Origin: a virus | DNA length: 34,619 nt | Virus record (IMG/VR): IMGVR_UViG_3300025101_000083 | Direction: 5' to 3' (one strand) | Notes under the pieces: model-generated | The model's input: only the letters and a program-made list of their open reading frames with translations | Database searches by the model: none | What the model was told of the DNA's origin: nothing | In this document: one piece after another, positions 22,415-34,619 of the stretch | Numbering within the stretch: position 1 is the stretch's first letter | How the letters are laid out: every line of letters begins with the position of its first letter | Program-made: the position numbers and the translations under genes

Positions 22415-22442
22415 GTACTATATACATTTGCTTTAAAATATG

Positions 22443-22514
22443 TTATTACTATGTAATATATTATTATGTATTATTATGATTATTATTACTATGTATTATA
22501 ATGACTATATAGTC
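22443..22514. repeat. AT-rich repeat region: TTATTACTATGTA x2 (22443-22455, 22483-22495), TTATTATG iterations, and perfect palindrome GACTATATAGTC (22503-22514)
   Basis: Read directly. Lies immediately upstream of the primase-helicase gene, so it is a candidate middle promoter, operator or origin. Confidence 0.6.
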
Positions 22515-22531
22515 TCAATAATGAGGAATTT

Positions 22532-24187
22532 ATGAAAACTAAAAGTAAATTTATTCGTAACTTGCCTTGCTCTCAGATCGTGGATTGCCCTGATTCTGGC
22601 AGCTCAAACGTAGGAGAGTATGAAAAGGAGGACGGTAGCAGTTATTATTTCTGTTATAAGTGTAATAAACCATTAAAGCATGATAAGAAGCCCGTAGAAG
22701 CTCACCAGAGCATTTCTACCGCAGAAGTGTTATCTATACACCCAAAAGCACAGAAAGACGCTAGTGAGCCTGTATTCAAGTCTCAGGGCATATCCGATAG
22801 AAACATCAAACAAAGCACACTAGAGAAGTATGGTGTTAAAATTACTCAAAATGGGGAGCATTACTACCCGTATGGGAAAGATGTTTTCAAAATACGAGGT
22901 AAAAACAAAAACTTTAGATGGTCTGGTGTTGGTGATAAAAAACCTTTGTTTGGCATGGATGTTTATCCATCAGGTTGTGCAAAGATCATTACAGTTGTTG
23001 AGGGAGAGTTAGATTCACTCGCCGCAAGTCAGATGTTAAGTGCAGACTTACGTTTTCCAGTAGTATCAGTTCGTGATGGTTGTGCTAGTGCTGTTAAGTC
23101 TTGCAAGGATTCTTATGAATATTTATCATCCTTTACGCAAATTGTGTTTTGTTTTGATAATGATGATGTAGGACAAAAAGCACAACTTGAATGTGCAGAA
23201 CTATTCCCTAACAAAGCAAAAATGATGAAGATGAGAAAGGGTTACAAAGACGCTTGTGATTACTCTACAGACTCAGCGTTTAAACACTTTACAGAGGACT
23301 GGTGGGCAAGTCAAGTTTATATGCCAGACGGAATAGTTAAGGGTAAAGACTTAAAATCATTGGTGCTAGAGCCACTTCAAAAGTCTATTGCTATTTATCC
23401 CTATGGAGGCTTAAATGATTTAACTGGTGGTATTCGCTCTAGTGAATTAGTTTGTATTACAGCTGGTTCTGGATTGGGAAAGAGTCAGTTTTTACGAGAA
23501 ATTGTATACAAGTTATTAAAAGCCACAGAAGAAAATATTGGTTTGATGTTTTTAGAAGAGTCTGTAAAGCGTACAGCATTAAGCATTATGAGTCTGGACG
23601 CTATGAAACCATTACATCTCAACGAAACGGAAGCAACACAAGAAGAAAAACAAGTTGCTTTTGATGCTACTTTGGGAACTGGTAGGTTATTTTTGTTTGA
23701 TTCTTTTGGCTCTACAAGCGTTGATAACATTATTAATCGTGTACGTTACATGGCAAAAGCACTAGACTGTAAATTTATCTTCCTTGATCATATAAGTATA
23801 GTAGTCTCAGACCAACAACAAGGAGATGAACGTAGGGCATTAGATGAAATAACTACAAAGTTAAGGATGCTTTGCCAGGAGTGTGATATTACTTTATTTG
23901 CAGTTTCACACTTGCGTAGACCTTCAGGCACAGGGCATGAAGAAGGAGCAGTGACAAGCCTATCCCAGCTTAGAGGCTCTGGTGCAATTGGTCAACTTAG
24001 TGATATGGTGTTTGGTTTGGAAAGGCATAGTCAAGCTGACGATGTAACGGAAAGACACACTACAAGAGTAAGAGTAATAAAAAATAGATATTCAGGCTTG
24101 ACAGGGAAGGCGTGTGCATTGTACTATGATCGTAGCACTGGTCGTATGAATGAAGTATTTGAAGAAGATTTAGAGGAGCCTAAGTAA
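22532..24187 (+). CDS. bifunctional DNA primase/helicase (T7 gp4-like)
   Basis: N-terminal Cys4 zinc finger (CPDSG...CYKC). TOPRIM motifs VVEGELDSLA and FDNDDVGQKA. Helicase Walker A GSGLGKS and Walker B IFLDHIS. Confidence 0.93.
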   Translation: MKTKSKFIRNLPCSQIVDCPDSGSSNVGEYEKEDGSSYYFCYKCNKPLKHDKKPVEAHQSISTAEVLSIHPKAQKDASEPVFKSQGISDRNIKQSTLEKYGVKITQNGEHYYPYGKDVFKIRGKNKNFRWSGVGDKKPLFGMDVYPSGCAKIITVVEGELDSLAASQMLSADLRFPVVSVRDGCASAVKSCKDSYEYLSSFTQIVFCFDNDDVGQKAQLECAELFPNKAKMMKMRKGYKDACDYSTDSAFKHFTEDWWASQVYMPDGIVKGKDLKSLVLEPLQKSIAIYPYGGLNDLTGGIRSSELVCITAGSGLGKSQFLREIVYKLLKATEENIGLMFLEESVKRTALSIMSLDAMKPLHLNETEATQEEKQVAFDATLGTGRLFLFDSFGSTSVDNIINRVRYMAKALDCKFIFLDHISIVVSDQQQGDERRALDEITTKLRMLCQECDITLFAVSHLRRPSGTGHEEGAVTSLSQLRGSGAIGQLSDMVFGLERHSQADDVTERHTTRVRVIKNRYSGLTGKACALYYDRSTGRMNEVFEEDLEEPK

Positions 24188-24402
24188 TGGATAATAATAT
24201 TGAAAAAGATGATTTATCTGAACCTGTTAGTTGGAAAGACTTTTTAGCGTTAGCTTCAATAGTCAGACAACAAGAGGAATTAATTAAAATTTGTTTTCAT
24301 AATAATGAGATTCTGAACAACCGACTTAAAAATATTGATGTAGATTTAGATGATTATGAACAACATGAAGAAAGTCTAAGAGAAATAGAAAGGAGCGTTT
24401 AA
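24187..24402 (+). CDS. small acidic hypothetical protein, 71 aa
   Basis: TAATG coupling to the helicase gene. Helical, acidic. Confidence 0.55.
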   Translation: MDNNIEKDDLSEPVSWKDFLALASIVRQQEELIKICFHNNEILNNRLKNIDVDLDDYEQHEESLREIERSV

Positions 24403-24405
24403 ACG

Positions 24406-24591
24406 ATGAGCCACGAAGTCAATGAACAGTTAATCGAGAAAGTTTATCATGAGACACTTGAAATGAGTGTAGACGCATTTGCAGACGAGTTAATGAAACT
24501 TGGTTATACCTATGTTTTGAATGACTTAATTAAAAAGGTAGCTGCAAATAGATATGAAAATTTACCAGAAGGAGATCATAACAATGGATGA
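24406..24591 (+). CDS. small acidic hypothetical protein, 61 aa
   Basis: ORF in the same operon. Confidence 0.5.
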   Translation: MSHEVNEQLIEKVYHETLEMSVDAFADELMKLGYTYVLNDLIKKVAANRYENLPEGDHNNG

Positions 24592-24829
24592 CTTTCAAAT
24601 TAAAGTAGAATTATCAAAACTAGAAAATCAAATTCAGGAATTAGAAAACAAACAAAATGGAGTAAAATTTAATGTTGCTATTTTACAACAATCAATGGAT
24701 AAATTACAACAATCTCTTGAAAAGCTCCTTAAAACTCTTGCCAAAAACCTCGACTTGTGGTATGCTAATACCAATACTAACACAGAAAAGGACGAAGATG
24801 AGCAAACCGATAAGTCTAAGTGTCACTGA
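24584..24829 (+). CDS. coiled-coil hypothetical protein, 81 aa
   Basis: I prefer ATG 24584 (GGAG 9 nt upstream, ATGGATGA overlap) to the track start at 24554. Confidence 0.5.
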   Translation: MDDFQIKVELSKLENQIQELENKQNGVKFNVAILQQSMDKLQQSLEKLLKTLAKNLDLWYANTNTNTEKDEDEQTDKSKCH

Positions 24830-25004
24830 AAATAATAATGGTGTTAAGACTTTTCATGTATTATTTGATGATGGCACAATAAAATCACGACTAGAGGGTC
24901 ATAATGATTGGACAACAGAGCAACCTTGTATTTCTGGACATAGAGACAACGATGGATCACCAAAAGATACATCTGGTGGTAACAAACGCAAACGGAATAA
25001 TTAA
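24798..25004 (+). CDS. possible 68-aa ORF overlapping the DNA polymerase start by 101 nt
   Basis: Internal ATG of track ORF 24672..25004. Product is MSKPISLSVTENNNGVKTFHVLFDDGTIKSRLEGHNDW... Coding status uncertain. Confidence 0.3.
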   Translation: MSKPISLSVTENNNGVKTFHVLFDDGTIKSRLEGHNDWTTEQPCISGHRDNDGSPKDTSGGNKRKRNN

Positions 25005-26547
25005 GTGCCACAGAGATCCACAAAGTCTAAAAAAAGAGATACAGGGAAAAATCTTAGTAGCTCACAACGGGATAGGGTTCGATTACCCAGTTCTAAACAG
25101 GGTATGGGGTCTAAGAATCAAGCTGCATCAGGTTTTAGACACTCTGGTGTTAAGCAGATTGCTGAACCCAATGAGGACAAAACACTCTCTTGCGTCTTGG
25201 GGAGAGGATCTAGGCTTCCCTAAAACAGAGTTCAACCAGTTCGATCAATACTCAGAAGAGATGAGACAATATTGTATAAATGATGTGAAGGTATTAGAGA
25301 GAGTTTATAATCAACTTATTATGGAGAAAAAGAAACATGGATTTGATGAAACAAGTATACGACTCGAACATGAAGTTTGTGCAATTGTCAGCAAGCAAGT
25401 CAGCAGAGGCTTTAAGCTCAATGTCGAAGGCTGCGAAAGACTATGTGGAGTTCTGTCAGGACGAATGGAAGAAATATGTGAAGGATTACAAAAGTCCTTT
25501 CAGCCAATTGTTCACCAACGAGTCTCAGAAAAAACAGGAAAGCCGTTAAAGGATTATATTGAAGAATTTAATCCAGCATCAAGACAGCAGATATCTAAGA
25601 GGTTACAAGCAGTTGGATGGAAGCCAAAGAAGTTTACAGAGAAAGGTTCAGTCATTGTCGATGAATCGGTTTTACGAGGAGTTGATATTCCAGAAGCAAA
25701 ACTCATCTGTGAATATTTACTCTTACAGAAAAGGCTCTCTCAAGTTACCTCTTGGATTGAAGCTGTATCAGACAAACACAGGGTTCATGGTAAGGTCATT
25801 ACCAATGGAGCAGTAACAGGAAGAATGACACACCACAGTCCTAATCTAGCACAAATACCATCAGTAAACGCAGAATATGGCTCAGAATGTCGTGAGCAAT
25901 GGGTTGTTGACCCTAGCTACAAGCTGGTAGGTATCGATGCTAGTGGCTTAGAGCTACGGATGTTAGCTCACTACATGAATGATGAAGAATACACAAGGGA
26001 GGTAGTTGATGGAGACATACACACTAAGAACCAATTAGCAGCAGGGCTTGACACAAGAGCCAAAGCAAAGACTTTTATTTATGCTTTCTTATATGGTGCA
26101 GGTGCTAAAAAAATAGGTAGTATCACAGGCACAAATGGTGCATCTATTATAAAGAAGTTTATGAAGAACGTACCAGCCCTTGCAGAACTGAAAGAGAAGA
26201 TAACTGTGAACTTAGAAAAGAAGGGAACACTACCAGGCTTGGATGGTAGACGGTTATTTATACGTTCAGAACACGCAGCACTAAATACTTTATTGCAAGG
26301 TGCTGGTGCTATCGTGATGAAGAAGGCTCTTGTGATATTTAATAAGTATATTAAGTTGTATGAACTAGATGCACACTTTGTAGCAAACGTGCATGATGAA
26401 TGGCAGTTAGAAGTAAAAGAAGAAGATGCGGAACTTGTTGGTCAGTTAGGAGTCAGATCAATAGTTAACGCAGGTAGAGCATTGAAGTTAAACTGTCCTT
26501 TGGATGGTGAGTATAAGGTAGGTAATAACTGGAAAGAAACACACTAA
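24904..26547 (+). CDS. family A DNA polymerase (T7 gp5-like, compact)
   Basis: Exo I FLDIETT. Pol motif A DASGLELRMLAH, motif B KTFIYAFLYGAG, motif C NVHDEW. A TAG at 24892 closes the frame upstream. Confidence 0.93.
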   Translation: MIGQQSNLVFLDIETTMDHQKIHLVVTNANGIIKCHRDPQSLKKEIQGKILVAHNGIGFDYPVLNRVWGLRIKLHQVLDTLVLSRLLNPMRTKHSLASWGEDLGFPKTEFNQFDQYSEEMRQYCINDVKVLERVYNQLIMEKKKHGFDETSIRLEHEVCAIVSKQVSRGFKLNVEGCERLCGVLSGRMEEICEGLQKSFQPIVHQRVSEKTGKPLKDYIEEFNPASRQQISKRLQAVGWKPKKFTEKGSVIVDESVLRGVDIPEAKLICEYLLLQKRLSQVTSWIEAVSDKHRVHGKVITNGAVTGRMTHHSPNLAQIPSVNAEYGSECREQWVVDPSYKLVGIDASGLELRMLAHYMNDEEYTREVVDGDIHTKNQLAAGLDTRAKAKTFIYAFLYGAGAKKIGSITGTNGASIIKKFMKNVPALAELKEKITVNLEKKGTLPGLDGRRLFIRSEHAALNTLLQGAGAIVMKKALVIFNKYIKLYELDAHFVANVHDEWQLEVKEEDAELVGQLGVRSIVNAGRALKLNCPLDGEYKVGNNWKETH

Positions 26548-26556
26548 GGAGAATCT

Positions 26557-26964
26557 ATGGAACCCAGAAAGTCAATTAAGTTACAAACTAAGGTTATGTG
26601 GGCTTTTCATAACAAGACAAACGACTTGTCAGAAAAGTATCAGATAGACTTATGTGAATTATCTGAAGGGGCTGTGAAAGCATTACAAGATGAATTAGGA
26701 GTTACAGCTAAGAACAAAGAAGATAAAGGTAACTTTATTACTTGTCGTAGTGTTAGACCCTTGAACATTGTAGACCTTGAAGGAAGTTCATTACAAGATG
26801 TTGCAATTGGTAATGGTTCTAGTGGTGTAGCCATTGTATCTTCCTATGATTGGAAGAGTAAGATGGGTAAAGGTACATCACCAACATTAAAGAAAATGGT
26901 AATAAATGATTTACAGGTGTATGCAGGTGATGTTGAAGACGGTGGTGATGGGGATGTGTTGTAG
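26557..26964 (+). CDS. ssDNA-binding protein (gp2.5-like), putative
   Basis: 135 aa between polymerase and exonuclease. Acidic C-terminal tail DVEDGGDGDVL, as in gp2.5-type SSBs. Confidence 0.5.
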   Translation: MEPRKSIKLQTKVMWAFHNKTNDLSEKYQIDLCELSEGAVKALQDELGVTAKNKEDKGNFITCRSVRPLNIVDLEGSSLQDVAIGNGSSGVAIVSSYDWKSKMGKGTSPTLKKMVINDLQVYAGDVEDGGDGDVL

Positions 26965-27644
26965 TGATTGCTCTAGTTGATGGCGATATTCTTACTTACA
27001 GAGTAGGCTTTGGTTGTGAGGACTCTAGTGAGAGTATCGCTGTCGCTAAACTAGCGGAGTATTTAGAAGACCTTGTGTTTATTCATGCAAACTGTGAAAA
27101 GGCACAAGGTTATCTAACTGGCAGAGGAAACTATAGAGATGATATAGCAGTAACAAAAACATACAAAGGACATAGAATAGGGATAGCAAAGCCAAAGCAT
27201 TTTAACCTTATGCGTGAATACATGGAAAAAGCATGGGGCTTTGAAATGCAAGAAGGACAAGAAGCAGATGATGCCATAGGCATAGAAGCATATAGACTAG
27301 AACCTAGAGATTATGTTATTTGTTCAATTGATAAAGACTTAGATAACTTGAGAGGTTGGCATTACAACTTTCACAGAAATGAAATGTATAATGTTACAGA
27401 AGAAGAAGCTATTAAGAACTTTTATAAACAGTTGTTAACAGGTGACAGAACAGACAATATACCAGGCATTAAGGGTATTGGAAGCAAGAAGGCTGATAAG
27501 ATACTTGATGGATTAGAAGAGGAAGAAGACTTATACAGAGTAGTATTAGAAGAGTATAAATATAATCGTGACTACTTATTAGAACAAGGAAGACTATTAT
27601 GGATACGGAGAAAAAAGGAAGAACTCTGGATGCTACCAGAGTAA
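26964..27644 (+). CDS. 5'-3' exonuclease / flap endonuclease (T7 gp6-like)
   Basis: GTG start. Acidic clusters LVDGDILTYRVGF, GQEADDAIG and SIDKDLDN. H3TH-like PGIKGIGSKKADKIL. Confidence 0.8.
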   Translation: MIALVDGDILTYRVGFGCEDSSESIAVAKLAEYLEDLVFIHANCEKAQGYLTGRGNYRDDIAVTKTYKGHRIGIAKPKHFNLMREYMEKAWGFEMQEGQEADDAIGIEAYRLEPRDYVICSIDKDLDNLRGWHYNFHRNEMYNVTEEEAIKNFYKQLLTGDRTDNIPGIKGIGSKKADKILDGLEEEEDLYRVVLEEYKYNRDYLLEQGRLLWIRRKKEELWMLPE

Positions 27645-27937
27645 CTCTAGTACATTGGAAAGACGCAGTAGCAGATGTTGGATGGGATGATAATATTAAG
27701 TCAGAGTTACATGATTGTACTAGTATAGGTTTTATTATTGATGAAACTAAAGACGCTTTGACTCTAGCAAATACTGTATCACAAGACCAGAGTAATTGTA
27801 GGATAAACATACCTAAGAAGTGGATACTAAAGCGGAAGGATATTAAACTTGAAGACAAGCAGCAGAAAAGGAAAAGGTCGAAGCCTACAACAATGGGTAA
27901 GAGACTTGATAATAGAGAAGTTCAAGTTAACCAGTGA
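27599..27937 (+). CDS. hypothetical protein, 112 aa
   Basis: ATG 27599 has AAGGAAG 8 nt upstream. Overlaps the exonuclease gene by 46 nt and the next gene by 89 nt. Confidence 0.5.
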   Translation: MDTEKKGRTLDATRVTLVHWKDAVADVGWDDNIKSELHDCTSIGFIIDETKDALTLANTVSQDQSNCRINIPKKWILKRKDIKLEDKQQKRKRSKPTTMGKRLDNREVQVNQ

Positions 27938-28193
27938 TGATGTACGTTCAACATCTATGGGTTGTGGCGGTGAAGATATACAGCTATCACCAGTTGCTAG
28001 GAAGAAGCTGAATGTTTCTATTGAATGCAAAAGTAGGGCTAGGGTTGCTGTATACGGCTTCTATGAACAAGCTACAGTTAACTGTCCTAGTGGTGCAGAA
28101 CCAGTTGTTGTGGTTAAGCAAAATAGATGTAGTCCTTTATGTGTGGTTGCTGCTGAACATTATTTTGAACTATTAAGAAAGGCTAACTCTTGA
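27849..28193 (+). CDS. PD-(D/E)xK Holliday-junction resolvase-like endonuclease
   Basis: TTG start with GGAAGGA upstream. Hjc-like layout: RKGKGRSLQQWVRDLI, GGEDIQL (Asp) and SIECKS (E-x-K). Confidence 0.6.
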   Translation: MKTSSRKGKGRSLQQWVRDLIIEKFKLTSDDVRSTSMGCGGEDIQLSPVARKKLNVSIECKSRARVAVYGFYEQATVNCPSGAEPVVVVKQNRCSPLCVVAAEHYFELLRKANS

Positions 28194-28963
28194 AAGCTCA
28201 TCAAAAAAAAAGAAGAGAGGAAATAGCTGAGTTAGAAAGCAAAAACCTCTTAGATTTTTATTGGAATGATATAGATACAGACATAAAAAAAGCAGTGGTT
28301 AAACCAGTATCCTTAAAAGATGCTAAAAAAATTATAGAGCAGTATGAATGGTTAGGATGCTTATCTGCTATAAATAAGTATCAGTTTGGGATTTTCTTTG
28401 ATGGTGTTTGTGCTGGGGTTGTTGTTTATGGGACTGACTACATAGAAAATTTAGGCAAATGGGATAAGTATGGATACACAGGAAAAATAATTTTATTAAA
28501 TAGAGGAGCTTGTGTTCATTGGGCACATCCTCATTCCGCTAGTAAATTAATAAGCACTTCTATAAAAATGTTACCAGATAAATATAAAGTAATAACAGCA
28601 ACTGTAGATGATCTTGCAGGAGAGATAGGGACTATATATCAAGCTTGTAATTTCCACTACATAGGTTCTATGAGAGACTCTAACCCTAATGTTAAAAGTA
28701 AAAAAGGAGATAGATGTGGATGGTTAATTAACAACAAGCTGTATGGAGCCAGAGCTATTAGACAAAAATACGGAACAACACAATTAGAAATAATAAAAAA
28801 ACATCATCCAGATGTCAAAAAGGTAAAACAAAACAGTAAAAAAAGATACTTTTATTTTAAAGGAACAAAAAAAGAAAAAAGAGAATTATTTAGGTCAATA
28901 AAACATTTAGTAAAACCATACCCAAAAAGAAAGGAAACTCTTGAAACATTTAATTATACCTGA
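28190..28963 (+). CDS. Mom-like / GNAT-fold protein (possible DNA base-modification enzyme)
   Basis: TTG start (CTTGA overlap). AKKIIEQYEWLG..YQFGIFFDGVCAGVVVYG...LNRGAC...SASKLIS...GEIGTIYQACNFHYIG follows the pattern I remember for Mom-family proteins. Unverified by search. Confidence 0.4.
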   Translation: MKAHQKKRREEIAELESKNLLDFYWNDIDTDIKKAVVKPVSLKDAKKIIEQYEWLGCLSAINKYQFGIFFDGVCAGVVVYGTDYIENLGKWDKYGYTGKIILLNRGACVHWAHPHSASKLISTSIKMLPDKYKVITATVDDLAGEIGTIYQACNFHYIGSMRDSNPNVKSKKGDRCGWLINNKLYGARAIRQKYGTTQLEIIKKHHPDVKKVKQNSKKRYFYFKGTKKEKRELFRSIKHLVKPYPKRKETLETFNYT

Positions 28964-29702
28964 TACACAAGTTAAACCTGGAGTTGAACTAGGTTATCTT
29001 GAATGGATTGGAAAATATATAGTTGATAAAAAACCTGATGTTATCGTACAGATTGGTGACTTTGCTGATATGCCATCACTATCTTCTTTTGATATAGGTA
29101 AGAAGTCGTTTGAAGGTAGAAGATACAAAGATGATATAGAAGCTGCCAAAGAAGGTATGAACATTTTACTTAACCCGATGAGGGAATATAATGAAAAACG
29201 AAAGAAACAAAAACTCAAGCAATATAGACCCAGAATGGTTCTCACACTTGGCAACCACGAACAAAGAATTGACAGAGCAGTCGAAGGAGACTCTAAACTC
29301 GACGGCACTATTGGTACAGATGATCTCAGATACTCAGAGGCTGGTTGGGAGGTGTTTAGTTTCCTTGATACTGTTAGCATTGACGGGATTGTATATAGTC
29401 ATTACCTTGTAAGTGGTGTTATGGGTAGACCTATTGGTACTGCTTCCGCTATGGTTAACAAGACTCACCAGAGTTGTGTAGTAGGTCACCAGCAAGGTAG
29501 ACAAGTAGCCTATGGCAAAAGAGCAGATGGTTCTATTATCACTTGTATCATAGCTGGTTCTTGTTACTTACACAATGAGGACTATATGAGTATACAGGGT
29601 AATACTCACTGGAGAGGTATCGTGGTGTTACATGACGTACATGACGGTCAGTTTGATGAGATGTTTGTTAGTTTAAAATACTTGAGGAAGAAATATGGAT
29701 AA
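28941..29702 (+). CDS. calcineurin-like metallophosphoesterase
   Basis: TTG start with AAAGGA upstream. Motifs IIPDTQ, QIGDFADM (GDxxD), LGNHEQR (GNHE) and VVGHQQG (GH). Confidence 0.75.
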   Translation: MKHLIIPDTQVKPGVELGYLEWIGKYIVDKKPDVIVQIGDFADMPSLSSFDIGKKSFEGRRYKDDIEAAKEGMNILLNPMREYNEKRKKQKLKQYRPRMVLTLGNHEQRIDRAVEGDSKLDGTIGTDDLRYSEAGWEVFSFLDTVSIDGIVYSHYLVSGVMGRPIGTASAMVNKTHQSCVVGHQQGRQVAYGKRADGSIITCIIAGSCYLHNEDYMSIQGNTHWRGIVVLHDVHDGQFDEMFVSLKYLRKKYG

Positions 29703-30039
29703 TTTTATGCAAAAGAACAATAGAGAAGATGATAAGACAGTAGGAGATTATGTACAAAGAGCTGATCCTCTTTATGATCTAAATCTCTATGAGAATACAA
29801 CTAACGACAAAGTTAATCATCCACCACACTATAACAAAGGCACTATAGAAACATATGATTACATAGTTGATACACTAGGTAAGTTTGAAGCTATTAGTTA
29901 TTGTCAAGGTAACATCATCAAGTATATGACTAGAATGTGGCACAAGGGTAAACCATTAGAAGATGCTGAGAAAGCTGAATGGTATTTAAAGTCTATGATA
30001 GATTTATTAAAAGAAACAAAAGGGAAGAATTGGGGGTAA
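29695..30039 (+). CDS. DUF3310-like protein
   Basis: VNHPPHYNKGTIETYDYI...CQGNIIKYMTRMWHKG...DAEKAEWYL matches the DUF3310 signature from memory. Confidence 0.7.
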   Translation: MDNFMQKNNREDDKTVGDYVQRADPLYDLNLYENTTNDKVNHPPHYNKGTIETYDYIVDTLGKFEAISYCQGNIIKYMTRMWHKGKPLEDAEKAEWYLKSMIDLLKETKGKNWG

Positions 30040-30040
30040 T

Positions 30041-30199
30041 ATGGCATTGACATTAAATGATATATGTGATAGACTTAAAAACCTTGACGAAGTTTCGTTG
30101 CTTGAAGTATTAGATATAGCATCTGAGGACATAGTAGATAGATTTAACGATAGAATAGAAGATAAAGCGGATTTATTAGAAGAGGAGTTAAAAGATTGA
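30041..30199 (+). CDS. 52-aa acidic hypothetical protein
   Basis: Not in the ORF track. Product is MALTLNDICDRLKNLDEVSLLEVLDIASEDIVDRFNDRIEDKADLLEEELKD. Its TGA overlaps the TTG start of the reductase gene (TTGA). Confidence 0.5.
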   Translation: MALTLNDICDRLKNLDEVSLLEVLDIASEDIVDRFNDRIEDKADLLEEELKD

Positions 30200-32085
30200 A
30201 TACATACAGTCAGTTTATAGCAAAGAGTCGTTATGCAAGATACTTAGAAGACCAACAAAGAAGAGAAGATTGGAGTGAGTCTGTTCAAAGATATATGGAC
30301 TTTATGGTTAATCATCTAGAAGCAGAGCATGGTCATATAGTAGAAACACCAACAAAACTAAAAGTACAAGAAGCAATAGAGAAGTTAGAAGTTATGCCAT
30401 CTATGAGGGCTATTATGACTGCTGGTAAGGCACTAGATAGAGACAATACTGCTGGGTATAATTGTTCTTATCTTCCTATTGATGATGTTAAGGCATTTGA
30501 TGAAGCTATGTATATTCTTCTCTGTGGAACAGGTGTAGGGTTCTCTGTAGAGCATAAGTACGTTGAGAAGCTACCAGAAGTCCCTGAGAAGCTATTTGAG
30601 TCTGAGACTAACATAGTAGTAGCTGATAGCAAAGAAGGCTGGGCAAAGGCTCTTAGACAGCTTATAGCCCTATTGTATAGTGGTGAAGTACCTAAGTATG
30701 ACTTATCTAAAGTTAGACCATCAGGAGCTAGGTTAAAAACCTTTGGTGGTAGAGCATCAGGATCAGAACCATTGAATCAATTGTTTCAGTTCACTATCTA
30801 CAAGTTTAAACAGGCTGCTGGTAGGAAGTTATCATCTATTGATTGTCACGATATACTATGTAAGATTGGTGAAGTAGTAGTTGTAGGTGGTGTTAGAAGG
30901 TCAGCTATGATATCACTATCAGACTTAGAAGATGATAAGATGAGAGCCTGTAAGTCTGGTGCCTGGTGGGAATACAATCCACAGAGAGCATTGGCTAACA
31001 ACTCTGCTATGTACGATGAGAAGCCTGATATGAGCCAGTTTATGAAGGAATGGTCTAGCTTGTATGAGAGTAAGTCAGGTGAGCGTGGTATCTTCAGTAG
31101 AGCAGCATCAAAGAGACAAGCTGATAAGAATGGTAGAAGAGATATTAACTATGACTTTGGTACAAACCCTTGTAGTGAGATTATACTTAGACCATACCAG
31201 TTCTGTAATCTAACTGAGGTGGTAGTCAGAGCAGAAGACACACCAGCTGATATAGCAGACAAAGTAGAGATAGCAACAATACTAGGTACATGGCAGTCTA
31301 CACTTACTAAGTTTCCATACTTGCGTAAGGTATGGCAGAAGAACACAGAAGAAGAAAGACTGCTAGGAGTGTCATTAACAGGCATTCTGGATAACAAAGT
31401 AATGGGAGATGTAAATGATGGAGCAAGAAGAATCTTACGAGAACTCAAACAAGTGGCTGTTGAAACAAACGCTAACTTATCTACTCTTCTCGGAATCCCT
31501 CAATCGACTGCTATTACTTGTGTCAAGCCTAGTGGTACTGTGTCTCAGCTTGTTGATTCTGCCAGTGGTATTCATCCTAGACACTCTAGTTATTATATTC
31601 GCAGGGTGCGTGGTGATAAAAAAGACCCTCTTTCCCAGTTCTTAAAAGACCAAGGAGTTCATACTGAAGACTGTGTTATGAAGCCTGATTCTACTGTTGT
31701 ATTCTCATTCCCAATAGAAGCTCCTGAAGGTGCTACAGTTAGAGATGATTTAACAGCTATAGACCATCTTGAGTTGTGGATGATGTATCAGAAGGAGTGG
31801 TGTGAGCATAAGCCATCTGTGACCATAAGCGTCAAGGAAGAGGAATGGATGGAAGTAGGGGCATGGGTATGGAAGAACTTTGATGACATATCAGGTATAT
31901 CATTCCTACCTTATGATGGTGGCTCTTATAGACAAGCTCCATATGAAGAGTGTACAAAAGAAGAGTATGTTAAGCTACTAGGTAACACTCCTCCAAAGAT
32001 AAAATGGAATGAGTTAGTAGAAGTAGATGATAATGTTAAAGGAGTACAAGAGTTAGCTTGTTCTTCAGGAAGCTGCGAGGTTTAA
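30196..32085 (+). CDS. nrdJ: ribonucleotide reductase, class II (adenosylcobalamin-dependent) type
   Basis: TTG start with GAGGAG upstream. N-terminal SRYARY...REDWSESVQRY, active-site NPCSEI, C-terminal redox Cys pair CSSGSCEV. Single-subunit size (629 aa). Confidence 0.85.
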   Translation: MNTYSQFIAKSRYARYLEDQQRREDWSESVQRYMDFMVNHLEAEHGHIVETPTKLKVQEAIEKLEVMPSMRAIMTAGKALDRDNTAGYNCSYLPIDDVKAFDEAMYILLCGTGVGFSVEHKYVEKLPEVPEKLFESETNIVVADSKEGWAKALRQLIALLYSGEVPKYDLSKVRPSGARLKTFGGRASGSEPLNQLFQFTIYKFKQAAGRKLSSIDCHDILCKIGEVVVVGGVRRSAMISLSDLEDDKMRACKSGAWWEYNPQRALANNSAMYDEKPDMSQFMKEWSSLYESKSGERGIFSRAASKRQADKNGRRDINYDFGTNPCSEIILRPYQFCNLTEVVVRAEDTPADIADKVEIATILGTWQSTLTKFPYLRKVWQKNTEEERLLGVSLTGILDNKVMGDVNDGARRILRELKQVAVETNANLSTLLGIPQSTAITCVKPSGTVSQLVDSASGIHPRHSSYYIRRVRGDKKDPLSQFLKDQGVHTEDCVMKPDSTVVFSFPIEAPEGATVRDDLTAIDHLELWMMYQKEWCEHKPSVTISVKEEEWMEVGAWVWKNFDDISGISFLPYDGGSYRQAPYEECTKEEYVKLLGNTPPKIKWNELVEVDDNVKGVQELACSSGSCEV

Positions 32086-32086
32086 T

Positions 32087-32218
32087 ATGTGGGAGATTAC
32101 ACCAATATCAGGAGTAATGGTAGGAGTAGAGTATCAACATGATGCTAATGATTATAAGTATTTAGTTATAGACTTTTTTCTTGTGAGGTTTACTTTTCAT
32201 TATGATGCTAGTGAATAA
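32087..32218 (+). CDS. possible 43-aa ORF
   Basis: ATG 2 nt after the reductase stop. Product is MWEITPISGVMVGVEYQHDANDYKYLVIDFFLVRFTFHYDASE. Overlaps the cytochrome start. Confidence 0.25.
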   Translation: MWEITPISGVMVGVEYQHDANDYKYLVIDFFLVRFTFHYDASE

Positions 32219-32516
32219 AATGATAATACTATTGATAGCACTATTATTTAATCCTGTATTTGCAGGTGATATAAAACTAGGTGAAGCAAAGTTTAATAAG
32301 AACTGTAAGCAGTGTCATGGACCAGCAGGTATGGGTCTAGCTAGTTATCCAAAGGTGTCTGGTAATGATATTGCTTACACTATAGATAGACTAAAAAACT
32401 ATAGAGCAGGTATTGAAATAGGACCAAACTCATCTTTAATGATAATGATGGCTAGACCTTTATCTGATGTAGATATTGAAAACTTAGCAGCTTACTTAAA
32501 GGAAGCAAAGAGGTAA
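32202..32516 (+). CDS. secreted monohaem c-type cytochrome (c4/c553-like)
   Basis: Signal peptide MMLVNKMIILLIALLFNPVFA|GD. Haem motif CKQCH. Distal Met region SSLMIMMA. C-terminal LSDVDIENLAAYL typical of class I cytochromes c. Confidence 0.85.
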   Translation: MMLVNKMIILLIALLFNPVFAGDIKLGEAKFNKNCKQCHGPAGMGLASYPKVSGNDIAYTIDRLKNYRAGIEIGPNSSLMIMMARPLSDVDIENLAAYLKEAKR

Positions 32517-32563
32517 TGCTTAACGATTTATTACACGTTTACGTTCTTATGGAGGTATAAAGT

Positions 32564-32758
32564 ATGATTATGGGTATATTAAATATTATCAAACATGGTG
32601 TACTTATACTGTATGTAAGTTTTATTGTTAGTTTAATTCTAATAGGTGCGGTTGGAGAGTTTGTAGTAGAAGATAAGAGAGGATTACAGGAGTTTTTAGT
32701 AGTAGCTGCTATATTCACTCCAATCTACCTTGCTTTCTTGTGGGGTAAAAATGAGTAA
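32564..32758 (+). CDS. small membrane protein (2 TM), 64 aa
   Basis: GGAGG RBS and two hydrophobic helices. Confidence 0.6.
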   Translation: MIMGILNIIKHGVLILYVSFIVSLILIGAVGEFVVEDKRGLQEFLVVAAIFTPIYLAFLWGKNE

Positions 32759-32996
32759 TATTCTTATATTTATATTAGGATGTAGTGTTAGTTATTTATT
32801 ATTATACCAAGGCAGAGAAGAAATACATGATTTATGGAAGGTAGCTTACAAAATAGGCAAAGATGATGGTACTTCTGTAGCCAAGGCACAGTATGAATGG
32901 ACAGAAGAAAGACTTAGTGAAGAGTGTATGTTGTTACACTTTGAGAAAGATGAGAAGCGTAGAAGTAACCTAGGATTAAAAGGGCTAGGTCAATGA
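32751..32996 (+). CDS. small membrane-anchored protein, 81 aa
   Basis: I prefer ATG 32751 (ATGAGTAA overlap) to the track start at 32730. N-terminal TM helix, charged C-terminus. Confidence 0.55.
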   Translation: MSNILIFILGCSVSYLLLYQGREEIHDLWKVAYKIGKDDGTSVAKAQYEWTEERLSEECMLLHFEKDEKRRSNLGLKGLGQ

Positions 32997-33154
32997 CAAT
33001 AGTTGAATCACCTTGTATTGGTATTTGTGAACTACAAGACAATGTTTGTATTGGCTGTAATAGAACAGTTGAACAAATTACCAATTGGGAAACTATGAGT
33101 CACGAAGAAAAAGAAAAGGTAATAAATTCTTTATCTAGTACGACCATACAGTAG
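32993..33154 (+). CDS. DUF1289-like Cys4 (putative Fe-S/metal-binding) protein, 53 aa
   Basis: Not in the ORF track. ATGA coupling. Product is MTIVESPCIGICELQDNVCIGCNRTVEQITNWETMSHEEKEKVI..., matching the SPCxGxC...CxGCxRT..EI..W signature. Confidence 0.8.
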   Translation: MTIVESPCIGICELQDNVCIGCNRTVEQITNWETMSHEEKEKVINSLSSTTIQ

Positions 33155-33524
33155 GTCTAGGTCTAAAAGTAGAGTTTTCAGATGTATCTAAGTGAATGAA
33201 CCTACCACTGCCTTTCTGTTGCACTCCTATGCCAGTAAAACCAAGCTCAAAAGCTAGTGACATAAGCTGGTAAGCGTCACCTCTACTTACCTTTACATCA
33301 GCAGCTAAACCATCATGGTGAACACCTGGAGTCTTTTTCTTTAGTTCTATAGGGTGTGTTCTTGCTCTGTATCCACTTGTAATCACCATAGGTTGACCAT
33401 AGTATTCTCTTAGTTGATTCATCTTATTGATAAACTCTTGATCCATGTTACACTCACCAGTAGCACTACACTTAAACTCATTTTCACTAAAATACTTACC
33501 CCAGTCTATAATATACTTTTTCAT
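33135..33524 (-). CDS. endolysin, peptidase M15 (zinc D-Ala-D-Ala carboxypeptidase-like) family
   Basis: SGYRARTHP...GVHHDGLAADV...FIHLDT gives an H/D/H zinc-ligand layout. Adjacent to a holin-like gene. Confidence 0.8.
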   Translation of the reverse strand: MKKYIIDWGKYFSENEFKCSATGECNMDQEFINKMNQLREYYGQPMVITSGYRARTHPIELKKKTPGVHHDGLAADVKVSRGDAYQLMSLAFELGFTGIGVQQKGSGRFIHLDTSENSTFRPRPTVWSY

Positions 33525-33525
33525 A

Positions 33526-33969
33526 TTAGTCCTTTTTGTCCATTAAATCTGTTAGTTCTTTTGTTTTATCTTTGCTACTAAGACTACTACCAAAGTAGTA
33601 TCCTAAAACCATAGTTACTGCTGATGATAACGTACCTAGTACATATATCAATATATCTTTAGACTGTGGATCTACTTCTACAAATATAATTACAAGAAAT
33701 AAACCAAACGCTAGTATTACTGTACCTAGTGCTAGTATAGGAGTAACAATCTTGTTTAGCATTGGGGCAAACTCACTGTTTGCTATCTTCATCTCTCTTT
33801 CACGAGCAGACTGTTTATCTTGCATCTCTGATTCTAACTTAGCTAGTTCACCTTTTTGCTCCATATCTCTAAGTTCTTTCATAGCTTTAGCACGAGCAGT
33901 AGGGTCAGGTATAACCCTATCTAAAACTTTCTCTGCTACAGGAAGCAGACCAGTAAGTAGTTGTAACAT
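33526..33969 (-). CDS. holin-like membrane protein (resembles the GTA-type 3TM holin family)
   Basis: N-terminal LLPVAEKVLDRVIPDPTARAKAMKEL followed by hydrophobic helices (IVTPILALGTVILAFGLFLVIIFV and ILIYVLGTLSSAVTMVLGYYFG). Located directly upstream of the endolysin. Confidence 0.5.
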   Translation of the reverse strand: MLQLLTGLLPVAEKVLDRVIPDPTARAKAMKELRDMEQKGELAKLESEMQDKQSAREREMKIANSEFAPMLNKIVTPILALGTVILAFGLFLVIIFVEVDPQSKDILIYVLGTLSSAVTMVLGYYFGSSLSSKDKTKELTDLMDKKD

Positions 33970-33978
33970 CTATTCTCC

Positions 33979-34170
33979 TTATGTTGTATAATATTTCTTC
34001 TTTATTTTACAGCCATTCTCAGTCTCTACTTCAAACCAGTTAAACCCTTTATACTCATTAGCACACCAATAAATACACAATCCTCTTTCCATTCGTTGTA
34101 GCCTACAGTAGTATTGTTCTCTTTGTGGTATTATAGTTACTAACATAGTAGATAGTAGTATTTCTATCAT
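33979..34170 (-). CDS. small Cys-containing membrane-anchored protein, 63 aa (lysis-cassette associated)
   Basis: N-terminal hydrophobic segment and 4 Cys. ATGA coupling to the upstream gene. No lipobox seen. Confidence 0.45.
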   Translation of the reverse strand: MIEILLSTMLVTIIPQREQYYCRLQRMERGLCIYWCANEYKGFNWFEVETENGCKIKKKYYTT

Positions 34171-34619
34171 TGTACTCCCTTTATTGAGTCAATTAAGAAC
34201 TGCACCATCCACCATCCAGCCATAAGCAGAACAGCTATAATAGATAACATAGTGGAATTGTAAATGAGTTCTTTACGTTTGCGTATTTGTTGGTATACCT
34301 GAGCTTCTCGTTTGCGTTGAATTGACCTTCTAATCTGTATTAGCTGTTTATAACCATCTGCACCAAGATGGTGCAATGAACCCCAGTAGAACATATGCTT
34401 TAGTTCTTTCTCCATCTCTTTAATTCTTTGTCTTGCAGCAAGTTCATCAAATGCTTCTGCTGTGCTTGACTTAGTGTAAGTAATCTTCTTGAATATAGAT
34501 GGCTTACTTTCTTCTTGTGTTAAACAGAACTTTACATCTTCTACCGCAGAAGCCCATTTACCTAGCTGTGAGAATACTTCTTGAGCTTCTTTACCATAGT
34601 TTACTGCTGTCTTGATACC
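34167..34619 (-). CDS. 3' part of the junction-spanning gene; the full product is 166 aa with a C-terminal TM helix
   Basis: The frame is open from 34619 down to the TGA at 34167, and the true ATG is at window position 147. Full gene is complement(join(34167..34520,1..147)). The track's 82-aa version starts at an internal Met. Confidence 0.75.
   Translation of the reverse strand, partial: GIKTAVNYGKEAQEVFSQLGKWASAVEDVKFCLTQEESKPSIFKKITYTKSSTAEAFDELAARQRIKEMEKELKHMFYWGSLHHLGADGYKQLIQIRRSIQRKREAQVYQQIRKRKELIYNSTMLSIIAVLLMAGWWMVQFLIDSIKGVQ
34521..34619. repeat. 99-bp exact direct terminal repeat, copy 2
   Basis: Identical to 1-99. Confidence 0.95.

What the first reader, a model, noticed from the sequence alone, without database searches (positions are those of the whole stretch)
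32202..33154. Phage-encoded secreted cytochrome c followed by two small membrane proteins and a DUF1289-like Cys4 protein
The distal end of the early arm carries four genes. One is a 104-aa protein with a signal peptide, a CKQCH haem-binding site, a Met-rich distal ligand region and a c4/c553-type C-terminus. Two are small membrane proteins. The last is a 53-aa ORF missed by the ORF track with the SPCIGIC...CIGCNRT...W signature of DUF1289. It looks like a compact redox/auxiliary-metabolic cassette that would place a soluble electron carrier in the host periplasm during infection. That is not a standard podovirus function.
Basis: partly seen in the sequence, partly recalled or inferred. Interest (0 to 1): 0.65.

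Follow-up and report, generated by a model that had tools for sequence, protein, structure and literature searches.

The report
Phage-borne periplasmic cytochrome c gene
A marine phage genome carries a real, well-conserved gene for a small exported haem protein (cytochrome c) that in bacteria is always paired with a periplasmic PQQ-dependent sugar dehydrogenase, but it is an optional, swappable gene and does not form a fixed four-gene unit with its neighbours.

Summary
The four ORFs exist as described. ORF 32202-32516 is a monohaem class I cytochrome c (Pfam above cut-off, signal peptide, CKQCH, conserved Met80). ORF 32993-33154 is a DUF1289 Cys4 protein. The "compact redox cassette" reading fails. 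Near-identical phages carry cytochrome c without DUF1289, DUF1289 without cytochrome c, or an MT-A70 methyltransferase in the cytochrome slot. Metagenome contigs show these variants side by side. The two membrane proteins are present in all relatives examined, with or without cytochrome c.

The cytochrome gene occurs in at least two ~34 kb podovirus lineages and in T4-like or large phages, under purifying selection (median dN/dS 0.15). Most phage copies form one clade. All 55 cellular orthologues (50-70% identity) with downstream sequence lie directly upstream of a GSDH-family PQQ dehydrogenase gene. Four phage contigs with the cytochrome also encode PqqA nearby.

The best reading is an accessory metabolic gene that adds a periplasmic electron carrier to the host branch running from the PQQ dehydrogenase to the terminal oxidase. 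No phage isolate genome, BFVD structure or searched paper holds it. I rate it a new member of a known kind, of moderate interest.

The parts
30196..32085 (+). Class II (adenosylcobalamin-dependent) ribonucleotide reductase. It is the last large gene of the replication arm and the anchor of the flexible region that follows.
   Evidence: PHROG 367 ribonucleotide reductase, E 2e-190. NCBIfam RTPR 303 bits, below its 340-bit cut-off.
32087..32218 (+). orf43, a small conserved ORF of unknown function. Its stop overlaps or abuts the cytochrome c start. It is present in relatives with or without cytochrome c.
   Evidence: 100% conserved in L001, L002, L024 and L101; 62-65% in L102 and L104. Omega 0.35. 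No family hit.
32202..32516 (+). Monohaem class I cytochrome c precursor (104 aa; alternative start 32220 gives 98 aa). An accessory gene occupying a flexible slot.
   Evidence: Pfam PF00034 41 bits and PF13442 35.8 bits. PDB 8yts_A E 8e-22, plus c4 domains, c552 and c554. AF2 model TM 0.73 to 8yts. Median dN/dS 0.15 over 241 phage pairs. Slot alternatives are shown.
32202..32264 (+). Predicted Sec signal peptide (aa 1-21, MMLVNKMIILLIALLFNPVFA). Cleavage is probably at VFA|GD.
   Evidence: Hydrophobic stretch at aa 1-24. Alignments to the mature crystallised proteins 1etp and 1cno begin at query residue 21. All phage and cellular homologues have an equivalent N-terminal hydrophobic leader.
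32304..32318 (+). CKQCH haem-attachment motif (Cys35, Cys38, His39).
   Evidence: Read directly from the sequence. C35, C38 and H39 are invariant in 40 homologues. CKQCH is characteristic of the phage clade, versus CGNCH/CINCH in cells.
32436..32453 (+). LMIMMA segment. By homology, Met80 (32439-32441) is the sixth haem ligand.
   Evidence: L79, M80, I81 and M82 are invariant. M80 aligns with the conserved Met of 8yts and of the cytochrome c4 domains.
32564..32758 (+). tm64, a 64-aa protein with two predicted membrane spans. It is present in all relatives examined and is of unknown function. A GGAGG ribosome-binding site precedes it.
   Evidence: Hydrophobic stretches at aa 2-36 and 43-61. Present with cytochrome c (L001-L003) and without it (L101, L102, L104). 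Omega 0.22. No family hit.
32751..32996 (+). tm81, an 81-aa protein with one N-terminal membrane span and a charged C-terminal part. It is present in all relatives examined and is of unknown function. Its start overlaps the tm64 stop.
   Evidence: Hydrophobic stretch at aa 1-20. Present in L001-L003, L101-L105, L106 and L107. Omega 0.11-0.14. No family hit.
32993..33154 (+). DUF1289 Cys4 protein (53 aa). It is an independently mobile small gene. Its ATGA start overlaps the tm81 stop, and its 3' end overlaps the endolysin 3' end by 20 nt.
   Evidence: Pfam PF06945 62.6 bits. Window 32995-33135 is an insertion relative to L001 and L003. Joints 32994->33136 and 32994->33139 are seen in metagenome contigs. 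Its dS to L102-L105 is 0.22-0.31, against 1.0-1.8 for its neighbours.
33135..33524 (-). M15 peptidase endolysin, the end of the converging late/lysis arm.
   Evidence: Pfam Peptidase_M15_3 50.6 bits. PHROG 894 endolysin, E 2e-29.
33526..33969 (-). Holin (three-span GTA-holin type).
   Evidence: Pfam GTA_holin_3TM 32.5 bits. PHROG 3427 holin.

Best explanation
ORF 32202-32516 is a functional, phage-borne auxiliary metabolic gene for a Sec-exported monohaem class I cytochrome c. It sits in a flexible cargo slot at the end of the replication arm of a complete ~34.5 kb marine podovirus-like genome.

It belongs to an orthologous group that in bacteria is always encoded directly upstream of a periplasmic PQQ-dependent six-bladed (GSDH-family) dehydrogenase. 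In that setting it is the presumed electron acceptor that passes electrons on to a terminal oxidase.

**Proposed mechanism (inferred).** The gene is transcribed with the replication genes. The precursor is exported and receives haem from the host's cytochrome c maturation system. The extra carrier then raises or maintains electron flow from the host's periplasmic dehydrogenase, and possibly from other donors, to the oxidase. This would sustain proton-motive force and ATP while phage DNA is made.

**The neighbours.** tm64, tm81 and DUF1289 are not functional partners of the cytochrome. tm64 and tm81 are conserved membrane proteins of this phage lineage with unknown function. DUF1289 is a separately mobile Cys4 gene that is common in marine phages.

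**Shown:** gene identity, motifs, purifying selection, patchy distribution, slot alleles, and the cellular synteny with GSDH. **Inferred:** export, haem attachment, time of expression, and the redox partners.
For: **Identity**
- Pfam hits are above cut-off.
- Sequence matches to solved cytochromes: 8yts E 8e-22, cytochrome c4 domains, c552 and c554.
- The model superposes on the same set of structures.
- C35, C38, H39 and M80 are invariant.

**Phage origin and selection**
- Found in 24 IMG/VR contigs at 66-99% identity, between phage genes.
- Found in T4-like contexts next to gp13/gp14/gp15 and in 144-187 kb contigs.
- Median dN/dS is 0.146 with dS up to about 2.
- All phage copies except the L022 type form one clade, with 77% NJ bootstrap.

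**Accessory nature**
- Three slot alleles exist: cytochrome c, MT-A70 methyltransferase, or empty.
- In the class I RNR podovirus lineage it follows RNR beta in only 9 of 70 loci.

**Link to PQQ dehydrogenases**
- In all 55 cellular loci (50-70% identity) that have downstream sequence, a GSDH gene follows the cytochrome gene. The gap is usually 25-140 nt, with one locus at about 290 nt. Six further loci show the same arrangement.
- PqqA lies within about 2 kb in nine cellular loci.
- Pfam-validated PqqA genes lie 1-2.5 kb from the cytochrome in phage contigs L017/L176, L091, L168 and L178.
- A preprint reports that PQQ six-bladed dehydrogenases are commonly adjacent to periplasmic class I cytochromes c and models them as electron acceptors feeding a terminal oxidase (10.64898/2026.07.10.737718).
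- Freshwater methylotroph phages that encode methanol dehydrogenase and PqqA are a precedent for phage boosting of PQQ-linked periplasmic oxidation (PMC7678222).
Against: - No phage contig encodes the dehydrogenase itself, and the window has no PqqA. The link to GSDH therefore rests on orthology and on co-occurrence in a few other phages.
- The host is unknown, so it is not shown that the host has GSDH or makes PQQ.
- The main phage clade is old and equally distant (64-69%) from alpha- and gammaproteobacterial orthologues. Its partner specificity may have drifted.
- 30 of 34 PqqA-bearing viral stretches show no cytochrome in the part fetched.
- In larger phages the cytochrome sits with IscU and IscA rather than with anything PQQ-specific.
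- No RNA data could be found.
- Haem attachment was not tested.
- The patchy distribution shows the gene is dispensable for the phage.
Confidence: 0.6

Rival explanations
1. General respiratory booster. The phage cytochrome acts as a soluble carrier between the host bc1 complex and an aa3- or cbb3-type oxidase, with no special relation to PQQ dehydrogenases.
For: - The closest solved relatives include cytochrome c4 domains and c552/c554 proteins. Cytochrome c4 is seen bound in a bc1-cbb3 supercomplex (8smr).
- The phage carries no dehydrogenase.
- The window has no PqqA.
- Any GSDH partner cytochrome must in any case dock to an oxidase.
Against: - The cellular members of this orthologous group are found next to GSDH in 55 of 55 informative loci. 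This points to a dedicated rather than a housekeeping carrier.
- PqqA accompanies the cytochrome in four phage contigs.
Confidence: 0.25
2. The four adjacent genes (cytochrome c, two membrane proteins, DUF1289) form one co-functional redox cassette.
For: - All four are co-directional. The last three are linked by overlapping start and stop codons.
- DUF1289 has a Cys4 motif.
- Overexpressing E. coli YdhL (a DUF1289 protein) gave H2O2 and HOCl resistance in a genome-wide screen (PMC8228696).
Against: - Every combination of presence and absence occurs among close relatives and within single metagenomes.
- The cytochrome travels alone or with other neighbours in other lineages.
- DUF1289 occurs in many phages without any cytochrome, often just after RNR.
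- The dS of DUF1289 is 4-7 times lower than that of its neighbours, which shows separate and recent acquisition.
Confidence: 0.05
3. Iron-cofactor economy. The cytochrome is one of several iron-protein genes that marine phages carry (with IscU, IscA, and possibly DUF1289) to override a host's iron-sparing down-regulation of haem and Fe-S proteins. The specific redox partner would be secondary.
For: - In larger phages the cytochrome lies in a conserved cluster: secreted 104-110-aa protein, cytochrome c, IscU, a 42-aa ORF, then IscA.
- A peroxiredoxin gene lies nearby in one contig.
- The patchy, accessory distribution suggests niche dependence.
Against: - No link to iron was tested.
- The window itself has neither IscU nor IscA.
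- This reading explains why the gene is carried, not what the protein does, so it overlaps with the other readings.
Confidence: 0.1
4. Neutral passenger or assembly artefact. The gene is a recently captured host fragment with no role in infection, or a chimeric contig.
For: The gene is dispensable and often absent from close relatives.
Against: - Strong purifying selection holds over deep divergence, and all cofactor residues are kept.
- There is a monophyletic phage clade with its own CKQCH signature.
- The same junctions are found in many independent assemblies and viromes.
Confidence: 0.03

Closest known systems
Cellular cytochromes c encoded directly upstream of GSDH-family (PQQ six-bladed) dehydrogenases in marine Alpha- and Gammaproteobacteria
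   Same: They share 50-70% identity (82-84% for the L022-type phage copies), the same length, a signal peptide, and the signature GPNSxLMIMMAxPL(S/T)DxxIxNLAAYL. A preprint models such cytochromes as the dehydrogenase's electron acceptor (10.64898/2026.07.10.737718).
   Different: The phage gene has no adjacent GSDH. The phage clade has CKQCH instead of CGNCH/CINCH. The phage gene lies between phage replication and lysis genes.
Cytochrome c546/556 of Thioalkalivibrio paradoxus (PDB 8YTS), cytochrome c552 of Marinobacter (Pseudomonas nautica, 1CNO), cytochrome c554 of Vibrio (2ZZS), and single domains of dihaem cytochrome c4 (1ETP, 6Q2U)
   Same: They share the class I monohaem fold, with 48% identity to 8YTS (E 8e-22 by sequence; TM 0.73 by model).
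   Different: Those are cellular proteins with other or unknown partners. Cytochrome c4 has two domains and two haems, while this protein has one of each.
Cyanophage electron-carrier AMGs (plastocyanin petE, ferredoxin petF)
   Same: Each is a small soluble electron carrier carried by a phage as accessory cargo, presumed to keep host electron transport running during infection (my own background knowledge; PMC5082946 was listed, abstract only).
   Different: Those serve photosynthetic electron transport in cyanobacteria and use copper or Fe-S cofactors. This is a haem protein for a heterotroph's periplasm, and it needs the host's haem-attachment machinery.
Other phage-encoded c-type cytochromes: SoxD in sulfur-oxidiser phages, and a NapC/NirT multihaem cytochrome in amoC-phages
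   Same: They are c-type cytochromes encoded on phage genomes as AMGs (PMC8190135; 10.64898/2026.06.18.733297).
   Different: They belong to different families (an enzyme subunit, and a membrane-anchored multihaem protein), different pathways and different hosts. Neither is a free monohaem carrier.
Lake Baikal methylotroph phages encoding methanol dehydrogenase and PqqA
   Same: Here too, phages carry parts of a PQQ-dependent periplasmic oxidation system, including PqqA, and the proposed benefit is more host energy during infection (PMC7678222).
   Different: Those phages carry the eight-bladed dehydrogenase itself, and no cytochrome is reported. The phages here carry the cytochrome (some also PqqA) but not the dehydrogenase.
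DUF1289 / E. coli YdhL
   Same: The 53-aa ORF matches PF06945 over nearly its full length, with the four cysteines.
   Different: The function of the family is unknown. The phage copies are short stand-alone ORFs that are often unannotated, for example directly after the RNR gene in roseophages CRP-1 and CRP-9.

Membership tests
Class I c-type cytochrome (Pfam PF00034 / PF13442) | Profile match above the curated cut-off | tested here: met
   41 bits against a 21.3 cut-off, and 35.8 bits against 27.
Class I c-type cytochrome (Pfam PF00034 / PF13442) | A single CXXCH haem-attachment motif near the N-terminus of the mature protein | tested here: met
   CKQCH at aa 35-39, and there is only one such motif. 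It is invariant in 40 homologues.
Class I c-type cytochrome (Pfam PF00034 / PF13442) | A methionine sixth ligand in the C-terminal half | tested here: met
   M80 is invariant and aligns with the conserved Met of 8yts and of the c4 domains. Actual ligation was not tested.
Class I c-type cytochrome (Pfam PF00034 / PF13442) | An N-terminal export signal (periplasmic location) | tested here: met
   Hydrophobic stretch at aa 1-24. Homology to the mature proteins begins at aa 21. No dedicated signal-peptide predictor was available.
Class I c-type cytochrome (Pfam PF00034 / PF13442) | The all-alpha cytochrome c fold | tested here: met
   AF2 model with pLDDT 78. The top Foldseek PDB hits are all class I cytochromes (8yts TMt 0.73, 1cno 0.69, 2zzs 0.69).
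Class I c-type cytochrome (Pfam PF00034 / PF13442) | Covalently bound haem and reversible redox activity | not testable with these tools
   This needs expression with a cytochrome c maturation system, haem staining and spectroscopy.
Dihaem cytochrome c4 | Two class I domains, each with its own CXXCH | tested here: not met
   There is one domain and one CXXCH in 104 aa. The protein aligns separately to either domain of 1etp.
Cytochrome c6 / c553 PetJ (NCBIfam NF045930) | Equivalog score above the cut-off | tested here: not met
   29 bits against a cut-off of 135. No NCBIfam cytochrome model is reached.
GSDH-partner cytochrome c (orthologous group defined here by synteny) | Sequence membership: at least 50% identity and the GPNSxLMIMMA...NLAAYL signature | tested here: met
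   64-69% identity in the mature domain to alpha- and gammaproteobacterial members.
GSDH-partner cytochrome c (orthologous group defined here by synteny) | The gene lies directly upstream of a GSDH-family PQQ dehydrogenase gene | tested here: not met
   True in 55 of 55 informative cellular loci. It is not true in the window or in any phage locus, and no close GSDH relative was found in viral contigs.
GSDH-partner cytochrome c (orthologous group defined here by synteny) | Accepts electrons from the dehydrogenase | not testable with these tools
   This is only modelled in a preprint, and for related pairs.
Auxiliary metabolic gene of a phage | A host-type metabolic gene inside a bona fide viral genome, flanked by viral genes | tested here: met
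   The genome is complete, with terminase, portal, capsid, DNA polymerase, primase-helicase, RNR, endolysin and holin. The same junctions appear in many viral contigs.
Auxiliary metabolic gene of a phage | Maintained by selection in phages | tested here: met
   Median dN/dS is 0.146, and the phage copies form their own clade.
Auxiliary metabolic gene of a phage | Expressed during infection, with an effect on host metabolism | not testable with these tools
   No RNA run holds the sequence, and there is no cultured host.
DUF1289 (PF06945) | Profile match above the cut-off, with four conserved cysteines | tested here: met
   62.6 bits against a cut-off of 27, covering profile positions 1-44 of 47. 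Cysteines C8, C12, C19 and C22 are conserved in the phage homologues.

The most novel reading that the evidence does not exclude
Abundant marine phages of several morphotypes carry a dedicated cytochrome c, and some also carry the PQQ precursor peptide PqqA. Together these would plug into the host's periplasmic branch from a PQQ-dependent sugar dehydrogenase to the terminal oxidase. Infected heterotrophic cells would then gain respiratory energy from oxidising dissolved aldoses outside the cytoplasm. This would be a heterotroph counterpart of the photosynthetic electron-transport genes of cyanophages. The cytochrome-positive and cytochrome-negative alleles would be kept in balance by host genotype or by iron supply.
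Probability: 0.35. Interest if true: 0.7.

Novelty: new member of a known kind. Interest (0 to 1): 0.5.

Why it matters
Electron-transport cargo genes are well known in cyanophages and are less well documented in phages of marine heterotrophs. This gene family is widespread in uncultured marine phages. It occurs in two podovirus lineages, in T4-like phages, and in dozens of contigs from many samples. It is clearly under selection. It is absent from all 50,697 deposited phage genomes searched, from PHROGs and from BFVD, and the paper searches done here found no description of it.

Its orthology to the partner of PQQ-dependent periplasmic dehydrogenases gives a concrete and testable hypothesis for how such phages keep an infected cell energised. 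The co-existing alleles with and without the gene offer a natural experiment on when that pays off.

The work also shows that DUF1289 is a common and often unannotated small phage gene. Finally, it shows that adjacent small genes at the end of a phage operon should not be read as a functional cassette without comparing relatives.

Tried and rejected
- **Four-gene cassette.** Rejected on distribution.
- **Functional link between DUF1289 and RNR.** DUF1289 lies directly after RNR in CRP-1, CRP-9 and L108-L110. In the largest phage group (L111-L145) it follows an orf82-like membrane protein with no RNR nearby. The link is therefore not general, and I left it as an observation.
- **Dehydrogenase on phages.** No GSDH relative was found in viral contigs.
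- **Expression evidence.** No RNA run holds the cytochrome gene.
- **Promoter and terminator scans of 29500-34619.** Promoter-like sites did not exceed the shuffled expectation, and no terminator-like sites were found.
- **tRNA genes.** None.
- **Defence or anti-defence role for the small ORFs.** No PADLOC hits.
- **PHROGs, NCBIfam and Pfam for orf43, tm64 and tm81.** No PHROGs or NCBIfam hits, and nothing above cut-off in Pfam.
- **DUF1289 in the PDB.** No match by sequence.
- **Donor lineage of the main phage clade.** Unresolved. Identities to alpha- and gammaproteobacterial orthologues are equal at 64-69%, and the 82-column NJ tree is weak. A first Biopython bootstrap run timed out.
- **Host.** Not determined. 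The DNA polymerase is closest (52%) to HMO-2011-type pelagiphages. However, a preprint on the genus Pelagibacter does not mention PQQ and reports conserved SUF-system gene pairs, not ISC. The hosts of the IscU-carrying relatives may therefore be other low-GC Alphaproteobacteria.
- **Literature.** Ten searches found no paper describing this phage cytochrome. A search for the PDB code 8YTS returned one unrelated paper.
Full report
**What is in the sequence**

The window is a complete phage genome. Its first and last 99 bases are identical. It encodes:
- terminase large subunit (17942-19195, - strand);
- a portal-like protein (15926-17899, - strand);
- major capsid protein (13571-14497, - strand);
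- primase-helicase (22532-24187, + strand);
- family A DNA polymerase (24904-26547, + strand);
- class II ribonucleotide reductase (30196-32085, + strand).

The + strand replication arm runs from about 20268 to 33154. There it converges on the - strand lysis genes, an M15 endolysin (33135-33524) and a holin (33526-33969). G+C is about 36%. The DNA polymerase is at most 52% identical to any deposited phage; the nearest are HMO-2011-type pelagiphages. No deposited phage matches the region at the DNA level except for a distant RNR hit.

The four ORFs of the finding are all present.
- **32202-32516 (104 aa)** matches Pfam Cytochrom_C (41 bits, cut-off 21.3) and Cytochrome_CBB3 (35.8 bits, cut-off 27).
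- **32993-33154 (53 aa)** matches DUF1289 (62.6 bits, cut-off 27).
- **32564-32758 (64 aa)** has two hydrophobic stretches.
- **32751-32996 (81 aa)** has one N-terminal hydrophobic stretch.

**The cytochrome**

The protein has an N-terminal hydrophobic leader (aa 1-24). It has one CKQCH motif at aa 35-39 and an invariant L79-M80-I81-M82 segment.

By sequence, its nearest solved relative is chain 8yts_A (E 8e-22). Foldseek names that entry as cytochrome c546/556 of Thioalkalivibrio paradoxus, at 48% identity. The next relatives are the individual domains of dihaem cytochrome c4, Marinobacter c552 and Vibrio c554. These alignments begin at query residue 21, which corresponds to the mature N-terminus of those periplasmic proteins.

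An AlphaFold model (pLDDT 78) superposes on the same proteins. It reaches no named NCBIfam family; cytochrome c6 scores 29 bits against a cut-off of 135. It is therefore a monohaem class I cytochrome c of the c4-domain/c552 type. It is not a c4 and not a c6/c553.

The start codon is ambiguous. ATG 32202 overlaps the stop of the upstream 43-aa ORF and supplies a lysine in the leader. ATG 32220 is the start conserved in more distant phage copies.

**Is it really a phage gene, and does it matter to phages?**

A scan of IMG/VR found 24 viral contigs with the gene at 66-99% identity.
- In near-identical phages (L001-L003, L024) it occupies the same place after RNR and orf43.
- In a second lineage of ~34 kb podoviruses, which carry class I RNR alpha and beta genes (Pfam), it again follows the RNR gene, separated in some loci by one small ORF, just before the converging late arm. 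None of the window's other three small genes is present there.
- In T4-like phages it lies next to gp13, gp14 and gp15 homologues. That variant is recorded in at least 51 contigs.
- It also occurs in 144 kb and 187 kb contigs.

Across 241 pairs of phage copies the median dN/dS is 0.146, with synonymous divergence up to about 2. All cofactor residues are kept. All phage copies except the L022 type form one clade (77% NJ bootstrap) with a CKQCH signature, where cells have CGNCH or CINCH. The L022 type, found in T4-like phages, is 82-84% identical to low-GC Alphaproteobacteria and looks like a second, more recent capture.

None of the 50,697 deposited phage genomes has a match. No PHROG matches, and no BFVD viral structure matches.

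**It is optional cargo in a swappable slot**

- L101 is otherwise 98-100% identical to the window. There, the same slot holds a 177-aa MT-A70 methyltransferase that even begins with the same six residues, MMLVNK.
- In sister phages L102 and L104 (RNR 90% identical), orf43 is followed directly by tm64.
- Contigs from one metagenome run (X6) show three things together: a joint 32215->32558 that skips the cytochrome gene, a loose end at 32220 that reads into the methyltransferase, and a depth of 6.4 over the cytochrome against 36-68 on the flanks.
- In the class I RNR lineage, only 9 of 70 loci with enough downstream sequence have the cytochrome after RNR beta, and only 3 of the 8 closest.

**The neighbours are not its partners**

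tm64 and tm81 are present wherever this phage lineage was sampled, with or without the cytochrome. They are under purifying selection (omega 0.11-0.22). They match no family in Pfam, PHROGs, NCBIfam or PADLOC.

DUF1289 is a clean 141-bp insertion (window 32995-33135) relative to L001 and L003. Metagenome contigs show the form lacking it at comparable depth: 34.7 without against 21.2 with in X10, and 9.3 against 22.7 in X6. Its synonymous distance to L102-L105 is 0.22-0.31, while its neighbours show 1.0-1.8. It has therefore moved between these phages recently.

DUF1289 homologues occur in 49 further viral contigs and in cultured phages. In roseophages CRP-1 and CRP-9 an unannotated copy lies directly after the RNR gene. 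In the largest group of contigs, however, it has a different neighbour.

All combinations are therefore seen: cytochrome with DUF1289, cytochrome alone, DUF1289 alone, and a different gene in the cytochrome slot. The cassette reading is not supported.

**What the cytochrome most likely does**

A scan of one genome per bacterial species found 56 loci with an orthologue of 50-70% identity. They come from Alphaproteobacteria (including low-GC "Rickettsiales", "Alphaproteobacteria" and "Pelagibacterales" MAGs, Roseibium and Tateyamaria) and Gammaproteobacteria (Granulosicoccaceae, Marinobacter, Cocleimonas, Litoricola).

In all 55 loci that extend beyond the gene, the next gene is a GSDH-family protein. 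The gap is usually 25-140 nt, with one locus at about 290 nt. That protein matches Pfam PF07995 (172 bits) and has its own signal peptide. The same pairing is seen in six loci from another collection. More distant cytochromes (31-45% identity) lack this neighbour. A PqqA gene lies within about 2 kb in nine of the cellular loci.

A 2026 preprint reports that PQQ-dependent six-bladed dehydrogenases are commonly adjacent to periplasmic class I cytochromes c. It models the cytochrome docked over the PQQ site and passing electrons to a terminal oxidase (10.64898/2026.07.10.737718).

On the phage side, Pfam-validated PqqA genes (38 and 41 bits, cut-off 21.1) lie 1-2.5 kb from the cytochrome in L017/L176 and L091. 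The same peptide type lies near the cytochrome in L168 and L178. Phage-encoded PqqA, together with a PQQ-dependent methanol dehydrogenase, has been described in freshwater methylotroph phages and read as energy boosting (PMC7678222).

My best explanation is therefore that the phage supplies extra copies of the periplasmic carrier linking a host PQQ dehydrogenase, and possibly other donors, to the oxidase. This would sustain energy supply during replication. The following steps are inferred and not shown:
- export;
- haem attachment by the host maturation system (established for class I cytochromes in proteobacteria);
- early-to-middle expression with the replication operon;
- the identity of the redox partners.

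**Weak points**

- No phage encodes the dehydrogenase.
- The window has no PqqA.
- The host is unknown.
- The main phage clade is old and equally distant from alpha- and gammaproteobacterial orthologues.
- In larger phages the gene's constant companions are not PQQ-specific. They are a secreted Cys-rich 104-110-aa protein, IscU and IscA.
- No transcript data could be found.

A general role between the bc1 complex and the oxidase, or a broader "iron-protein supply" role, cannot be excluded.

**Comparison with what is known**

Phage-borne electron carriers are well known in cyanophages (plastocyanin, ferredoxin). c-type cytochromes have been reported on phages as SoxD (PMC8190135) and as a NapC/NirT multihaem protein (10.64898/2026.06.18.733297).

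A free monohaem class I cytochrome c in phages of marine heterotrophs, orthologous to the GSDH partner, was not found in ten literature searches, in deposited phage genomes, in PHROGs or in BFVD. I class it as a new member of a known kind, namely auxiliary metabolic genes for electron transport.

**Verdict**

Interest is moderate (0.5). This is a widespread, selected and apparently undescribed phage cargo gene with a specific and testable functional hypothesis. The hypothesis rests on comparative evidence alone, and the kind of thing it is, is familiar.

Noticed in passing
window 1-99 and 34521-34619: An exact 99-bp direct terminal repeat. The window is a complete genome of about 34.5 kb, either circularly assembled or with terminal repeats. 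The - strand late arm continues across the window ends into the lysis genes.
   Followed up: partly
L017 7871-7948 (-); L091 8759-8863 (-); L158-L191: PqqA precursor-peptide genes occur on marine viral contigs. 34 IMG/VR stretches carry the motif WTKPxATDxRFGFEITMY. Both copies tested (L017, L091) pass the Pfam PqqA cut-off. Three of the IMG/VR stretches, plus the ENA contig L091, have the cytochrome c within 1-2.5 kb.
   Followed up: partly
L018 1660-3115; L155 6667-8283; L156; L092; L168: In larger phages the cytochrome c sits in a conserved cluster. The order is a secreted Cys-rich 104-110-aa protein with no family match, cytochrome c, IscU (NifU_N), a 42-aa ORF, then IscA-like (Fe-S_biosyn). 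In L018 the order differs (IscU and IscA precede the cytochrome), and L092 and L168 show no IscU. Peptide deformylase or peroxiredoxin genes lie nearby in L018 and L156.
   Followed up: partly
L150 3501-3644 (Roseobacter phage CRP-1); L151 3501-3635 (CRP-9): Unannotated DUF1289 ORFs lie directly downstream of the ribonucleotide reductase gene in cultured roseophages. The same RNR-then-DUF1289 order is seen in viral contigs L108-L110, but not in the largest DUF1289-bearing phage group (L111-L145).
   Followed up: partly
L101 3168-3758 and 3880-4413: A phage otherwise 98-100% identical to the window carries two extra genes in this region. One is a 196-aa ORF with no family hit, between RNR and orf43. 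The other is an MT-A70 DNA methyltransferase exactly in the cytochrome c slot, sharing its first six codons.
   Followed up: partly
window 28190-28963 (+): A Mom-family protein (Pfam PF25680, 88 bits), which suggests DNA base modification. A stronger Mom homologue lies near the cytochrome in L017 (196 bits).
   Followed up: no
L021 171-845: One cytochrome c copy is truncated after the LMIMMAKPLSD segment and fused in frame to the downstream 137-aa ORF. It lacks the last helix, so it is probably a broken copy or an assembly deletion.
   Followed up: no
window 20676-21320 (+): A weak SprT-like metalloprotease match (25.2 bits, just under the 25.6 cut-off) at the start of the early arm.
   Followed up: no
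window 10001-12000: G+C rises to 0.45-0.46, against about 0.36 elsewhere. This falls over ORF 10215-11852 (-), which matches PHROG 2295 (unknown function).
   Followed up: no
L032 1-690 and L044 1-602: In low-GC alphaproteobacterial genomes, the iscU and iscA genes lie about 4.3 kb upstream of the cytochrome c-GSDH pair. The cellular IscU is 76% identical to the phage IscU of L018.
   Followed up: no
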